From IMG/VR virus record IMGVR_UViG_3300019776_000550, positions 1 through 64,000 of that record: a stretch of 64,000 bases of DNA; one strand, written 5' to 3'. The notes below the pieces were generated by a model. It saw only the letters and a list, made by a program, of their open reading frames with translations, was not told the origin of the DNA and made no database searches. The stretch is from a virus. Position 1 is the first letter of the stretch, and the number at the start of each line of letters is the position of its first letter. This document shows positions 6,701 to 49,095 of the stretch, one piece after another. The translations under genes were made by a program, and so were the position numbers.

Positions 6701-9700
6701 ACTTGGATAAAGATGGTAAGCAAAAGACTATTCAAGGTATTAGCTTTAATAATAATCTTAATCGTAGGTTGAACATTAAATCTATTGAAATACTAAGTAA
6801 AAATCTTAGCAATCTAATAGATTTAAAATTAAATGCTGAATTTTATATAAGCAATCTTCTTAAAACAATTAAAACAAAAGAAGAAAAAATTAACAATTAT
6901 AAACAAAAACTTAAAGCTTTAAATGCAAACGATGGTTCTGTAAAAAATATTGCAGATGATATTAAACAACTTTTAGCAACATCTATAGCAAATGAAATAA
7001 ATACGAGAGAATCAGATGTAGAGGTTTTAAAAGATAGTATTAAAAATTTAAAATTATTTGCAGATAAAGATGAAGCTTTTGATTTAGATAATCCTTTACC
7101 AAAAGTAATTCAAGAAGCTCTTGATACAGTACAAGCTTATCGTGATTCTAATGCTCAATTAAAAGAATCAGATAAGCAAAAACTTCTAAAAGAAAAACTC
7201 AAGCTTATAAATGAAGAAAGAAAAATTATTGCAGAAAAATTAGGTGAAATAAGTGAAGCAATAAAAGCGTCTTTACCTAAAGATGAACTCACACAAAACA
7301 TTTTAGATAAAAATGATAATCTTACAGATGCTTTATTAGAAATTATTGATAGTCAAGCTGAATCACCAAGTAAAGATGCTACATTTGTTGATTTGTATAA
7401 ACAACTTTTAACTAAAGAGATTGAATTAGCTGAAATCAGAAAAGAATTAGAAGATGATTTATATGATAAGATAGCACAAGAAACAGGTATTCTAAGTCCT
7501 AAAGCTATTAAATTAGGAGAATTAGATGCTATGATTAGTTTTTGGAATTATACTACTAACAAAGGTTATCGTTATAGTTCAGGTTATCCTAAATGGTATT
7601 CGAAGAACTTCCACGATGATGCTGATTTTGATGTAAGTGTATCTGAATCAGACAATGCGGATGAAAGTATAATTAAAACAAAAGCTCCTTCTGACCCTTC
7701 TAAGATTTCAGGAAAGTACGCTGATGAAAAAAGAAACTTTTTTAAATATTTTTATAGTGTACCTGTTGATAATGTTAATCCTATTAACTTAGAAGTAGAG
7801 GTAGATGGTGATACTATCTATCTTAAATTTGAGCATAATAAAATTCCAATGGTTACTACTTTACAGAGTTCTGTAAAAGATGGTAGTCCATTAGCTAAAT
7901 TTAGAGAATCACTTAAAGAAGCTTATGCTAAGAATCAAGCTGATGGAAAGAAAACTTTTATTACTCCTAATGGGAAGTTTTCAGCTTTTCAAAAAGGAAG
8001 TGTAAACAAACCTATTCAAGAAGTATTTAAAGGTATTGATTTTGATATAGAAGTTGCTGAAGGAAAGATAGGTGAAGAAGATGTAATTATGGAAGTAAAT
8101 AAGGTATTTTATAATGTTAAAAACGGAAGACCTTATGTTATAAATCGTAAATTAGGCATATTACAACCTGTAATTGTAGGAACTTTAGCAGAAGCTAAAA
8201 TTAAAGATAAAAAAGGTAATGTATTTACTCTTGCTGATACTATTTTCAATTATATAACTTATATTAAGTTATCAAAAGATAAAGTATCTGATAATGACTA
8301 TCAAAACCGAATTAAAAGTTTTTATATGCATTTGAATAGCTTTGTATTTACAGCTAATTCTAATTCTATTGGAACACAAGCTGATATGGTAAAAGGAGCT
8401 ATTGATATTATAGAAGCTGGAGGTGAGTGGTCATTGGTTTATTTAGATGCTGATGGTAATAAACAAAAGATTGATATATTTGATGAAGATGGTGTAAGCA
8501 AATTAGCAAAGGAACAAATTGAAAGACGATTAGTAAACCCTAAATTAGAAACTGAAAACTTTAAATATGATAATAAATTTAGTCCATTTGTTACATTTAT
8601 AGTTAATGAAAATGGACTTCCATTGCCTGTTAAATTAGACAAAGATGATTCTTATACTTACGCAACATTTTTAAAAGAATCAGCAGGTTTAAAAAGTAAT
8701 TTAGAAGTTCAAGATATTACAACTAATCCTACTTATTTTAAAGGAGGTTATTTTACTTTTGATGTTGACAGTAAACCTGTTGTAAATATAAATAATTTTA
8801 GTCCTAGAAGAATCATCAAGAAAGAATCTGCTCAAGAATCAGCAGCTGAAATACCTCCTGTTGTAAACACAAAGGCTAGTAGAAGAATCATCAAGAAAAA
8901 AGATGTAACAGATACAACATCAAGTTTTGATTTTGGTGCAACATCTGCTCAAGAATCAGCAGCTGAAGAAGCTGATGAAACATCTTCTGCTGAAGTACCT
9001 CCTGTTGTAAACACAATGGCTAGTAGATTTTCAGTAACAAAAAATAGATTTCAAAAAGAAGCTGATGATAAATCTGATGATTCAGATAATTTTTTCAATA
9101 AACAATCTCTTGAAATAGCAGGTACAGCTAGACTTAGAGATATGACAACTTCTGAATTAGAAGCTGCTAGAGATAAGTTTGAAAATAAATATGGTGTTAA
9201 TTTTGAATTAGTAAATGGGTTAATCAATGGTAGAGCTTGGGGTATGGTTACAAAAGCTGGTGAGGTATTTATATCAGATACAGCCCCATTAGGAACAGAT
9301 TATCATGAAGAGTTTCACCTAGTTAGTCAGCATATGTTAACTAAATCTGAATTAAATGATTTATATGCAGAAGCAAGAAACAGATACGGAAATCTAAATG
9401 ATTATGAATTAGAAGAACTTCTTGCAGAAGGATTTAGAATGTATGCACTTGGTTATAATGGCTTTGTTGGTAAAATAGCTTATTACTTTAATAAACTAAT
9501 AAATGGTATTAAATTATTATTGGGTATTAAAGGTACACCAATTGAGCAATTATATTCTGATATTTTGTATGGTAAGTATTATGCAAAACCTGTTTATGAA
9601 GGTACAGTTAGAAACAGTCAGGTTTTAAGCTATGATGAAAAGCAAGAAATTTCAAGTCATATTACTAAATTTGTATTACATACGATTAAAACAGCCGGTT

Positions 9701-47298: not shown

Positions 47299-47369
47299 TT
47301 TTTCTTCACTCTGCTTTTTACAAGGACTTGTGACCTTCTATATTAAATATAGGTAGCATTAAAGAAAAA
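47299..47369 (-). ncRNA. Twister ribozyme (type P1, with P3)
   Basis: Minus strand: UUUUUCUU UAA UGCU AC CUAUA-UUUAA-UAUAG AAGG UCACAAGU CCUU GUAAAA AGCA GAGUG AAGAAAAA. P1, P2, P3 and P4 pair; both pseudoknots (CAC/GUG and AC/GU) pair. Confidence 0.9.
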
Positions 47370-48240: not shown

Positions 48241-48544
48241 TTTTTTTTTTTTGATTTAATTACACAGCTTAAAATAAAATAATTACAATTGTATGATTTA
48301 ATGCAAGTAGTTTGATTAACTTCTCGGAACTAACTTTCATAAGAATTTCTTCTTATAACCAGTACATCCTTTGCACATACAATTGTAATTAATTGTTTTT
48401 AAATGTTCGGTTGTGTCTGTTTTGTATATCACAACTTTATCTTACACATCTATTGAGAAACCTCCAATGTCTCAAATGTTTTTCAATGTGTAAACCAGAT
48501 GCTTTACTTCAAACATTTCAAAGCTTCAATGGAGTTTGTAAGCT

Positions 48545-48670
48545 TTGAATAACAATGACCTTTTAACTTACATGATTTTCTCATGTAAAACTTTTATAAA
48601 AGTAGTTTCAAGATTTATTTAGACACGTTTATCTCATCATCAGATTGTTTTCGTGTATATTTTAATTCAA
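48545..48670 (-). ncRNA. Hammerhead ribozyme, type I
   Basis: Minus strand: AACAAU CUGAUGA U GAGAU-loop-AUCUU GAAA C...GUC AUUGUU. Stem I AACAAU/AUUGUU extends via UUGAAU/AUUCAA. Stem-I bulge ACACG is complementary to loop-II CGUGU. Confidence 0.85.
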
Positions 48671-49030
48671 AACTTAATAATAAAACAACAACTCTAGGTG
48701 TACATATCATAGGTAGTGAGCCTATGTACATATTTTTCACAGTTGAGCGTTGTTGCTTTATTATCTACTTCTAATAACATCAGTTGTCTTTTGTTATTAG
48801 ATTCACCTTCTGTTCACTCTAAGCAAGTACGTGTTATTGTATTAACACAATGCGATATGAGCATAAACAGTTTTCATCTCCTTATTTAAGGGAAACTAGG
48901 TTAGTCAAAAAAAAAAGAAGTAGTTTATTCTTTCAGATGTCTTTTAAAAAGACGGAAAGATGGACACAGCTGACATTGTAAGCAGTCCTACTTCTTTTAC
49001 GTAATCCTACCATCATGTCACTAGGTAGGT

Positions 49031-49095
49031 TTCCCACTCAACCTTCTATCATTATGATAGCTAACCCTTGTGAAGTTAGAATGAGGTTTTAAGAA
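49031..49095 (-). ncRNA. Putative variant twister ribozyme (type P1, with P5)
   Basis: Minus strand: UUCU UAA AACC UC AUU CUAAC UUCACAAGG GUUAG CUAUCA-UAA-UGAUAG AA GGUU GAGUG GGAA. L4 has one extra U and P1 is short. Confidence 0.6.

What the first reader, a model, noticed from the sequence alone, without database searches (positions are those of the whole stretch)
48545..48670. Type I hammerhead with an extra core U and a Watson-Crick loop-bulge pseudoknot
The core CUGAUGA (48643-48637), GAAA (48609-48606) and GUC (48559-48557) is intact. One extra U sits between A9 and stem II, a variant type known from some satellite RNAs. Stem III is long (CUUUUA/UAAAAG plus UUACAUGA/UCAUGUAA). The stem-I bulge ACACG (48656-48652) pairs with loop-II CGUGU (48627-48623), the sort of tertiary contact used by fast natural hammerheads. 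The 3' AUUCAA can alternatively enter the neighbouring hairpin (48506-48549), which could act as a switch.
Basis: partly seen in the sequence, partly recalled or inferred. Interest (0 to 1): 0.8.

Follow-up and report, generated by a model that had tools for sequence, protein, structure and literature searches.

The report
Variant hammerhead ribozyme family in phages
The flagged 130 bases belong to a conserved family of hammerhead-type self-cutting RNAs that sit between genes of uncultured water phages. The standard RNA catalogue misses this family because it always carries an extra base or a whole extra hairpin inside the catalytic core; cutting itself has not been tested.

Summary

**What is there.** On the minus strand, 48668-48539 carries a complete hammerhead core: CUGAUGA, GAA, an A15.1:U16.1 pair and C17. 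It lies in sense orientation in a 910-nt non-coding gap of the early/replication operon of a 91.5-kb phage.

**Rfam.** No hammerhead match at E<=10, in the window or in the relatives.

**Relatives.** Pattern scans that did not require the core found about 17 distinct relatives in viral and metagenome contigs. All have the same core.

**Covariation.** A 17-sequence alignment supports stems I, II and III and the 5-bp pseudoknot, which switches from ACACG/CGUGU to AGUGG/CCACU. Cells paired: 93.8%, against 30-41% when the partners are slid. Pairs changed on both sides: 15, against 3-5.

**Family hallmarks.**
- An insertion after A9 in all 17: a single U or G, UU, or a hairpin domain of about 20-110 nt.
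- An invariant G10.1·U11.1 wobble.
- A branched stem III.

The proposed CUUUUA/UAAAAG helix is not supported. The outer stem I and hairpin "switch" is specific to this window.

**Context.** A twister ribozyme (58.9 bits, E 5.5e-12) lies 1.2 kb downstream on the same strand.

**Verdict.** New variant of a known kind. Cleavage is untested.

The parts
48665..48676 (-). Outer stem I, 5' strand (UAAGUUUUGAAU). Specific to this window and a few relatives.
   Evidence: 12-bp duplex with 48550-48539, -11.4 kcal/mol, z -4.2. Not conserved across the family (mean z -0.39). A similar AAGUUUU/AAAACUU helix occurs only in L003 and L016.
48652..48656 (-). Pseudoknot 5' element ACACG, in the 5' tail or bulge of stem I
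   Evidence: pairs with 48627-48623. Three of the five pairs change on both sides in relatives (AGUGG/CCACU in L016 and L019, and read off the sequence in L002).
48644..48649 (-). Stem I, 5' strand AACAAU
   Evidence: helix 2: pairs with 48556-48551. Compensatory changes occur in L035 (A:U to G:C) and L033 (A:U to U:A), and a C:G to U:G change in L020.
48637..48643 (-). Hammerhead core C3-U4-G5-A6-U7-G8-A9
   Evidence: invariant in all relatives found with a 3' pattern that did not include it. The one exception is U7 to C in L020, at the single core position that the hammerhead consensus leaves free.
48636..48636 (-). Extra U between A9 and G10.1, the family's insertion site
   Evidence: all 17 aligned members have an insertion here. 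It is a single U or G, UU, or U(U)G plus a hairpin domain of about 20-110 nt (L004, L016, L021, L026, L031-L033, L035, L037, also L039).
48610..48635 (-). Stem II (GAGAU/AUCUU) with the 16-nt loop II, which contains CGUGU (48627-48623)
   Evidence: helix 3: G:C changes to C:G and A:U to U:A between the window/L023 form and the GACUU/AAGUU form. The closing G10.1·U11.1 wobble is present in 17 of 17.
48606..48609 (-). G12-A13-A14 and A15.1
   Evidence: GAAAC is invariant in all members.
48591..48602 (-). Hairpin IIIa (CUUU-UAUA-AAAG), the minimal form of a variable branch of stem III
   Evidence: helix 5: relatives have CUUGUA...UACAAG enclosing 10-250 nt. Strain SNPs 48598 and 48596 fall in its loop. 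The MFE fold predicts the same hairpin.
48568..48588 (-). Hairpin IIIb (UUACAUGA-GAAAA-UCAUGUAA), the conserved branch of stem III
   Evidence: helix 6: 4 of 8 pairs change on both sides, 97.8% of cells are paired, and the loop is conserved.
48557..48560 (-). 3' strand of the stem III base (G16.3 G16.2 U16.1) and C17. The predicted cut is between C48557 and A48556.
   Evidence: helix 4: A15.1:U16.1 and C:G are invariant. 48604:48560 is U·G here and C:G in all relatives and in the strain variants. Position 17 is C or U in the family.
48551..48556 (-). Stem I, 3' strand AUUGUU, which becomes the 5' end of the 3' cleavage product
   Evidence: helix 2.
48519..48550 (-). Outer stem I 3' strand (48550-48539), which overlaps the 5' arm of a downstream hairpin CAAAGCUU...AAGCUUUG (48547-48519)
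   Evidence: The two pairings are mutually exclusive, as read from the sequence. There is no comparative support.
47303..47365 (-). Context: a twister-P1 ribozyme on the same strand, 1.2 kb downstream
   Evidence: RF03160, 58.9 bits, E 5.5e-12. This is below the gathering score of 67.2.

Best explanation
This is a type I hammerhead self-cleaving ribozyme of a phage-specific subfamily that Rfam does not capture. It is transcribed as part of the minus-strand early/replication operon.

Proposed order of folding (inferred):
1. The 5' element ACACG pairs with CGUGU in loop II as soon as stem II is made, which sets stems I and II side by side.
2. Stem III then forms. It has a short base, a variable hairpin IIIa and a conserved hairpin IIIb.
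3. The 3' strand AUUGUU closes stem I and completes the core.

The 2'-OH of C48557 then attacks its 3' phosphate. The upstream RNA ends in a 2',3'-cyclic phosphate and carries the ribozyme. The downstream RNA starts with a 5'-OH at A48556.

The effect is to cut the polycistronic phage transcript at a gene boundary. Together with the twister at 47365-47303 it would release an RNA of about 1.2 kb that holds a 120-nt structured block and four small ORFs.

Shown here: the motifs, the family, and covariation of all helices and of the pseudoknot. Inferred: catalysis, the order of folding, and the consequence for mRNA fate.
For: - The core motifs are at the stated coordinates.
- It is the only descriptor hit in the genome and is rare in Markov genomes.
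- A scan with a 3' pattern lacking the core returned 15 further full-length relatives (window excluded). Every one has CUGAUGA (CUGACGA once), GAAAC and GGU(C/U)|AUUG. The chance hits of the pattern (L022, L034, L038) have none of these.
- Covariation: 93.8% of cells are paired, against 30-41% with slid partners. Fifteen pairs change on both sides, against 3-5. None of 500 shuffles reaches these values.
- The pseudoknot switches from ACACG/CGUGU to AGUGG/CCACU.
- Variation in the junction falls only where the hammerhead consensus allows it: N7, H17 and the bulge site.
- An extra nucleotide at exactly this place is known in the active CChMVd(+) hammerhead, where U raised the trans-cleavage rate 3-4 fold (PMC3705267, summarising De la Pena and Flores 2001).
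- Pseudoknots between stems I and II are needed for fast cleavage and occur in about 40% of hammerheads, and hammerheads flank genes in phage operons (PMC3088659).
- Same-strand twisters lie near this copy and near the copy in L002.
- In the strain of run X13, 48246-48859 differs at 5 of 614 positions, while the flanking ORFs differ at 7-9%. The three SNPs inside the ribozyme fit the family model.
- It sits between same-strand ORFs. In six or seven loci a start codon lies 18-32 nt after the cut.
Against: - No Rfam hammerhead model matches at E<=10, in the window or in five relatives.
- The pair next to the core is G·U rather than the near-universal G10.1-C11.1, and the insertion sits at the A9/G10.1 metal site (PMC7151607). 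Either could slow or abolish catalysis.
- Stem II has one G-C pair, and stem I is six pairs, five of them A-U.
- The hammerhead fold scores -17 to -18 kcal/mol against an MFE of -26.5 kcal/mol without the pseudoknot term. The fold z-score is only -0.76.
- The family is closely related overall, so invariance of the core is weaker evidence than it looks.
- Some copies look decayed: L020 has a broken stem II and L002 lacks the 3' end.
- There is no RNA-end data. The one RNA contig covers 49032-48668 only.
Confidence: 0.75

Rival explanations
1. A conserved folded RNA that descends from or mimics a hammerhead but no longer cuts, or cuts only very slowly. It would serve instead as a structural or protein-binding element, for example an mRNA stabiliser, a processing signal for a host RNase, or a binding site on the conserved IIIb hairpin.
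For: - The G10.1·U11.1 wobble and the insertion after A9 are fixed in 17 of 17 members and lie at the catalytic metal site (PMC7151607).
- Large domains are tolerated inside the core junction.
- Rfam models fail.
- Non-core parts are as conserved as the core: the loop II segment UAAAUAA, the IIIb loop and the UAAAA junction.
Against: - All eleven core positions are kept exactly, with variation only at N7 and H17.
- A pseudoknot that aligns stems I and II is what a working hammerhead needs (PMC3088659).
- An extra U at this site is compatible with activity in CChMVd.
- Proven ribozyme classes lie nearby (twister).
Confidence: 0.17
2. A conserved DNA-level module, such as a small mobile insertion or a recombination cassette. 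Its spread among phages would explain the conservation, and the RNA fold would be incidental.
For: - Homology breaks sharply at the element's edges: L024 against L029 upstream of ACACG, and the X13 contig that shares only 48606-48656.
- Flanking genes are unrelated between loci.
- The relative L001/L002 lacks the element at this place and has a truncated copy elsewhere.
Against: Compensatory changes in six helices, including a pseudoknot, show selection on RNA pairing. The element always lies in sense orientation between same-strand ORFs. Mobility and ribozyme function are not mutually exclusive.
Confidence: 0.05
3. A chance hammerhead look-alike in AT-rich non-coding DNA.
For: - GC content is 25-28%.
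- The fold z-score is -0.76.
- There is no Rfam match.
- The scan covers very many windows, so a 2% per-genome chance rate would give many false sites.
Against: About 17 homologues have an intact core and covarying helices. The family model R1 scores this site at 125 bits.
Confidence: 0.02

Closest known systems
Type I hammerhead ribozymes with a stem I / loop II tertiary contact (Rfam RF00163 Hammerhead_1; Schistosoma structure 2GOZ as cited in PMC3088659)
   Same: - Stem I is open, and stems II and III are closed.
- The core is CUGANGA / GAA / A15.1:U16.1 / H17.
- An element in stem I, 5-6 bp from the core, contacts loop II.
   Different: - The contact is a 5-bp Watson-Crick pseudoknot.
- There is an obligatory insertion after A9.
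- The 10.1-11.1 pair is G·U instead of G-C.
- Stem III is a three-way junction of 50-300 nt.
- It scores below E=10 with RF00163.
CChMVd (+) hammerhead with an extra residue between A9 and G10.1 (De la Pena and Flores 2001, as summarised in PMC3705267)
   Same: One extra nucleotide at exactly the same core position. In that ribozyme a U there was the best variant, with a 3-4 fold faster trans-cleavage rate.
   Different: - That ribozyme is a viroid type III hammerhead whose natural extra base is A.
- It has no hairpin-sized insertions.
- I did not check its 10.1-11.1 pair. The source calls G10.1 only 'quasi-conserved'.
Hammerheads (mostly type II) with pseudoknots that flank genes in prophage and phage operons (Perreault et al. 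2011, PMC3088659), and the bacterial ribozyme clusters reviewed in PMC6765202
   Same: - Intergenic and in sense orientation.
- Flanking genes are unrelated from one copy to the next.
- Other self-cleaving ribozymes (twister) lie nearby.
- A Watson-Crick pseudoknot links stems I and II.
   Different: - The topology is type I.
- There is a core insertion and a G·U closing pair.
- Stem III is branched.
- The published core insertions are at A6a and U13a, and the published 10.1-11.1 deviation is U-U.

Membership tests
Hammerhead ribozyme (class) | 5' core strand C3-U4-G5-A6-N7-G8-A9 | tested here: met
   CUGAUGA at 48643-48637. It is invariant in the family except N7 in L020.
Hammerhead ribozyme (class) | G12-A13-A14 between stems II and III | tested here: met
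   GAA at 48609-48607. It is invariant in 17 of 17 members.
Hammerhead ribozyme (class) | A15.1:U16.1 pair followed by H17 (not G) at the cut site | tested here: met
   A48606:U48558 and C48557. The pair is A:U in 17 of 17. Position 17 is C or U. Most scans fixed it as Y; the one scan that left it free added a single new member, also with C.
Hammerhead ribozyme (class) | Three helices around the core, supported by covariation | tested here: met
   Pairs changed on both sides: stem I 3, stem II 2, stem III branches 3 and 4. The stem III base varies on one side only.
Hammerhead ribozyme (class) | Stem II starts directly after A9 with G10.1-C11.1 | tested here: not met
   One extra U lies at 48636 and the pair is G48635·U48610. 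Both deviations are fixed in all 17 members.
Hammerhead ribozyme (class) | [quoted passage not shown] | tested here: met
   A 5-bp pseudoknot, 48656-48652 with 48627-48623. Three pairs covary.
Hammerhead ribozyme (class) | Site-specific self-cleavage that leaves a 2',3'-cyclic phosphate and a 5'-OH | not testable with these tools
   Only contigs were available for the RNA runs, so there is no information on RNA ends.
Rfam RF00163 Hammerhead_1 (and the other Rfam hammerhead models) | Covariance-model score at or above the gathering score (34 bits for RF00163) | tested here: not met
   No hammerhead match at E<=10 in 601 nt, in 3.4 kb or in the whole genome. None at E<=0.1 in five relatives' loci.
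Ribozyme-punctuated phage operon (Perreault 2011 type arrangement) | Sense-strand intergenic position, with further self-cleaving ribozymes nearby | tested here: met
   All ORFs from 23762 to 50056 are on the minus strand. Twister-P1 lies at 47303-47365 (-), 58.9 bits, E 5.5e-12, below the gathering score. L002 has a twister 630 nt upstream of its copy.

The most novel reading that the evidence does not exclude
The family may be a new architectural form of the hammerhead. In this form the junction strand between A9 and G10.1, at the catalytic metal site, is an expansion site that can hold a whole extra helix, which makes the core a four-way junction. The invariant G10.1·U11.1 wobble and the conserved IIIb hairpin would then be adaptations to that layout. 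Such a ribozyme could have a changed metal-ion preference. Alternatively, its cleavage could be controlled by whatever binds the inserted domain or IIIb, making it a natural allosteric hammerhead that times the processing of phage early mRNA.
Probability: 0.2. Interest if true: 0.75.

Novelty: new variant of a known kind. Interest (0 to 1): 0.58.

Why it matters
- **Hidden ribozymes.** Hammerheads are the best-studied small ribozymes, yet this family escapes the standard models completely. Ribozyme-punctuated phage operons may therefore be commoner than catalogues suggest.
- **A natural experiment on the core.** The family varies the part of the core thought to hold the catalytic metal. It carries an insertion of 1 to about 110 nt between A9 and G10.1, and a fixed G·U in place of G-C.
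- **Open questions it makes testable.** If the family is active, it defines how much this site can be expanded, gives new scaffolds for engineered or allosteric hammerheads, and adds a case for asking why phages cut their early transcripts.
- **A usable search tool.** The covariance model built here (R1) could be used to annotate the family in viral metagenomes.

Tried and rejected
**Rfam**
- Searches at the gathering score and at E<=10 gave no hammerhead match.
- The overlapping weak hits (RAGATH-27, snoU83D) are noise.

**Sequence collections**
- GenBank phages hold neither the surrounding 3 kb nor the family: blastn found nothing.
- The scan of bacterial genomes gave one chance hit, L038, which has no R1 match.
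- The exact 22-mer from the window is absent from IMG/VR.
- Of the 18 hits to the 18-mer, 12 were chance matches inside coding regions.
- L022 and L034 are chance hits to the 3' pattern.

**Ideas tested and dropped**
- That the element processes a neighbouring tRNA, as theta or HDV-like ribozymes do. No tRNA adjoins any copy.
- That the outer stem I is a family feature.
- That there are further copies in the window or in the loci. R1 finds one per locus.

**Sequencing runs**
- Only contigs were available. The one RNA contig (run X15) is a relative's sequence, covers 49032-48668 and stops about 7 nt further on, short of the ribozyme core. It says nothing on cleavage.

**Other**
- The nearest relative (L001) is unalignable across the ribozyme region. 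I first read this as evidence against function, until a truncated copy turned up 2.5 kb away in the same contig.

Full report
**Setting**

The window is the first 64 kb of a 91.5-kb virus record with direct terminal repeats. GC content is 25-34%. It encodes a large terminase, a portal, a major head protein, a DNA polymerase and helicases, plus ORFs of 3953 and 2027 aa. I read it as a tailed phage; its crAss-like layout is my inference. Sequencing runs that hold it come from freshwater, aquatic and drinking-water metagenomes.

All ORFs between 23762 and 50056 lie on the minus strand. The finding lies on that strand, in a 910-nt gap without ORFs between the genes at 49539-49150 and 48240-48040.

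**Observation**

My own descriptor required:
- CUGANGA, then 0-1 inserted base;
- a stem II of at least 4 bp directly before GAAA;
- a stem III closed by A:U, then H;
- a stem I of at least 5 bp.

It finds only this site in the genome. Of 300 first-order Markov genomes, 2% gave any hit and none gave one with stems as good. The descriptor was written after seeing the site. With about 250,000 windows scanned, a 2% rate would still give many false sites, so this alone decides nothing.

Rfam is negative. There is nothing at the gathering score in 64 kb. There is no hammerhead at E<=10 in 601 nt, in 3.4 kb or in the whole genome. The region's fold energy is unremarkable (z -0.76).

**Relatives**

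The nearest phage, L001/L002, shares 88% amino-acid identity in the upstream ORF but is unalignable across the candidate.

Laying contigs of other samples on the window gave two leads:
- In the strain of run X13, 48246-48859 differs at only 5 of 614 positions. The flanking ORFs differ at 19 of 276 and 26 of 274 positions.
- A 301-nt contig from a different context shares only 48606-48656. That stretch runs exactly from ACACG to the last A of GAAA.

I then ran pattern scans:
- A pattern demanding ACACG, CUGAUGA, CGUGU and GAAA at the window's spacing found L003.
- The 18-mer around the core found L002 (identical to L015), L004, L016 and L019 among 12 chance coding hits.
- A pattern taken only from hairpin IIIb, the base of stem III and stem I's 3' strand contains no core nucleotide of the 5' half. 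It found 6 viral and 16 metagenome loci.

Every locus from the 3' pattern with enough upstream sequence has CUGAUGA (CUGACGA in L020) and GAAAC in place. The two exceptions are obvious chance hits, L022 and L034. A last scan that left position 17 and stem I free added L039, with C at position 17.

No copy occurs in GenBank phages. None was found in one genome per prokaryote species: the single pattern hit there is not matched by the family model.

**Structure**

I aligned 17 distinct members (A2) and counted a structure consisting of stem I, stem II, the pseudoknot, the base of stem III and hairpins IIIa and IIIb.

| Measure | Structure as given | Partners slid 1-3 columns |
|---|---|---|
| Cells paired | 93.8% | 30-41% |
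| Pairs changed on both sides | 15 | 3-5 |
| Covariation score | 0.240 | 0.012-0.048 |

None of 500 shuffles reaches the observed values.

Details by helix:
- **Stem II.** GAGAU/AUCUU in the window and L023, and GACUU/AAGUU elsewhere. That is two compensatory pairs.
- **Pseudoknot.** ACACG/CGUGU in most members and AGUGG/CCACU in L016 and L019 (also in L002). That is three compensatory pairs, possibly from a single event.
- **Stem I.** Changes occur in L035, L033 and L020.
- **IIIb.** Four pairs covary.
- **Junction.** Variation is confined to N7, to H17 (C or U) and to the site after A9.

A covariance model built from A2 (R1) scores the window's copy at 125 bits. It finds one copy per locus and no second copy in the window.

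**Corrected anatomy**

Read 5' to 3' on the minus strand:
1. ACACG (48656-48652)
2. AAA linker
3. Stem I 5' strand (48649-48644)
4. CUGAUGA (48643-48637)
5. Bulged U (48636)
6. Stem II with its 16-nt loop (48635-48610)
7. GAA and A15.1 (48609-48606)
8. Base of stem III: A:U, C:G, U·G
9. Hairpin IIIa (48602-48591)
10. Hairpin IIIb (48588-48568)
11. UAAAA
12. GGU-C17 (48560-48557)
13. Cut site
14. AUUGUU (48556-48551)

In relatives that 5' segment closes a local hairpin of 10-250 nt.

The three strain SNPs inside the element fit this model:
- 48604 U>C turns the U·G pair into the C:G pair seen in all relatives.
- 48598 and 48596 change the IIIa loop from UAUA to CACA.

The outer stem I (48676-48665 with 48550-48539, 12 bp) is real in this window. 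Its 3' strand overlaps a downstream hairpin (48547-48519). Flank pairing is not a family feature (mean z -0.39).

**Family peculiarities**
- All 17 aligned members have something between A9 and G10.1: a single U or G, UU, or U(U)G plus a hairpin domain of about 20-110 nt. In several members the domain is closed by ACUAUUAAU/AUUAAUAGU; in L031 and L033 it has unrelated sequence.
- The pair next to the core is G·U in 17 of 17.

These two features, together with the long branched stem III, are probably why the 45-position Rfam model fails. That is my inference.

**Is it likely to cut?**

For:
- The junction is the exact hammerhead junction.
- The pseudoknot is the kind shown to be needed for fast cleavage (PMC3088659).
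- In the CChMVd(+) hammerhead an extra residue at this very position is tolerated, and a U there speeds trans-cleavage 3-4 fold (PMC3705267).
- Deviations at 10.1-11.1 and core insertions occur in active natural hammerheads (PMC3088659).

Against:
- The changes sit at the A9/G10.1 metal site (PMC7151607).
- Stems I and II are weak.
- The nested hammerhead fold is 8-9 kcal/mol above the MFE before the pseudoknot is counted, which is worth about -4 kcal/mol.
- The family is young enough that conservation of the core is not by itself strong evidence.
- L020 (extra G, broken stem II) and L002 (3' end replaced) look like decayed copies.

**Function**

Copies lie between same-strand ORFs. The upstream ORF ends 13-81 nt before the element in eight loci. 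A start codon follows the cut by 18-32 nt in six or seven loci. The flanking proteins are mostly unrelated. No copy adjoins a tRNA.

In the window a twister-P1 match lies 1.2 kb downstream on the same strand (58.9 bits, E 5.5e-12, below the gathering score). L002 has a twister 630 nt upstream of its copy. This is the arrangement described for prophage hammerheads and for bacterial ribozyme clusters, with mRNA processing as the proposed role (PMC3088659; PMC6765202).

My reading is co-transcriptional cutting of the early polycistronic RNA. What follows for the stability or translation of the 5'-OH product is inference.

**Verdict**

The element is a member of the hammerhead class by core and fold. 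It fails the G10.1-C11.1 feature and the Rfam score.

I file it as a new variant of a known kind, with about 0.75 confidence that it self-cleaves. I found no description of this family in the papers I searched. I cannot exclude that single members are present in published alignments.

Earlier notes of this scan on the same genome pointed me to the twisters. Earlier reports on other genomes describe similar ribozyme-punctuated phage operons.

Noticed in passing
window 47303-47365 (-): Twister-P1 ribozyme match (RF03160, 58.9 bits, E 5.5e-12). It is below the gathering score of 67.2, so the default Rfam scan missed it. It lies about 35 nt upstream of the ORF 47266-47051.
   Followed up: partly
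window 48273-48393 (-); L002 about 8410-8530: A 120-nt non-coding block is almost 100% identical (one difference) to the relative phage contig, while the sequence on both sides is unalignable. It folds into a long-stemmed branched structure (-33.1 kcal/mol, z -5.4). In the relative, a tRNA-Met follows about 50 nt downstream. It may be an uncatalogued RNA or regulatory element.
   Followed up: partly
window 48246-48859: In the strain of run X13 the whole non-coding tract differs at 5 of 614 positions, whereas the neighbouring ORFs differ at 7-9%. This points to strong constraint or to a recent exchange of the tract.
   Followed up: partly
window 48676-48765 (-): A very stable long hairpin (-29.7 kcal/mol, z -4.6) ends in a U-rich run directly upstream of the ribozyme. 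It could be a terminator-like or protective structure at the end of the upstream RNA.
   Followed up: partly
Position 49032 is a breakpoint where contigs of several strains and an RNA contig diverge or carry insertions, including about 1.1 kb extra in run X6.
   Followed up: partly
L002 10901-11187 (+), identical to L015: The nearest relative phage has a copy of the ribozyme whose 3' end is replaced: the stem III base, the cut site and the stem I 3' strand are gone. The copy is therefore probably dead. It lies 2.5 kb downstream of the 120-nt block, and a twister-P1 match (40.3 bits) lies 630 nt upstream of it.
   Followed up: partly
L019, L026, L031: about 25 nt upstream of the ribozyme: Three members share a conserved upstream non-coding stretch (AAAUAGCAUAGGUAAU.CAAUG). 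This may be a further element of a subfamily.
   Followed up: no
L003 9200-9621 (+): An array of five tRNA genes (Asn, Ser, Leu, Gln, Tyr) in the phage contig that carries a family member. The array is not adjacent to the ribozyme.
   Followed up: no
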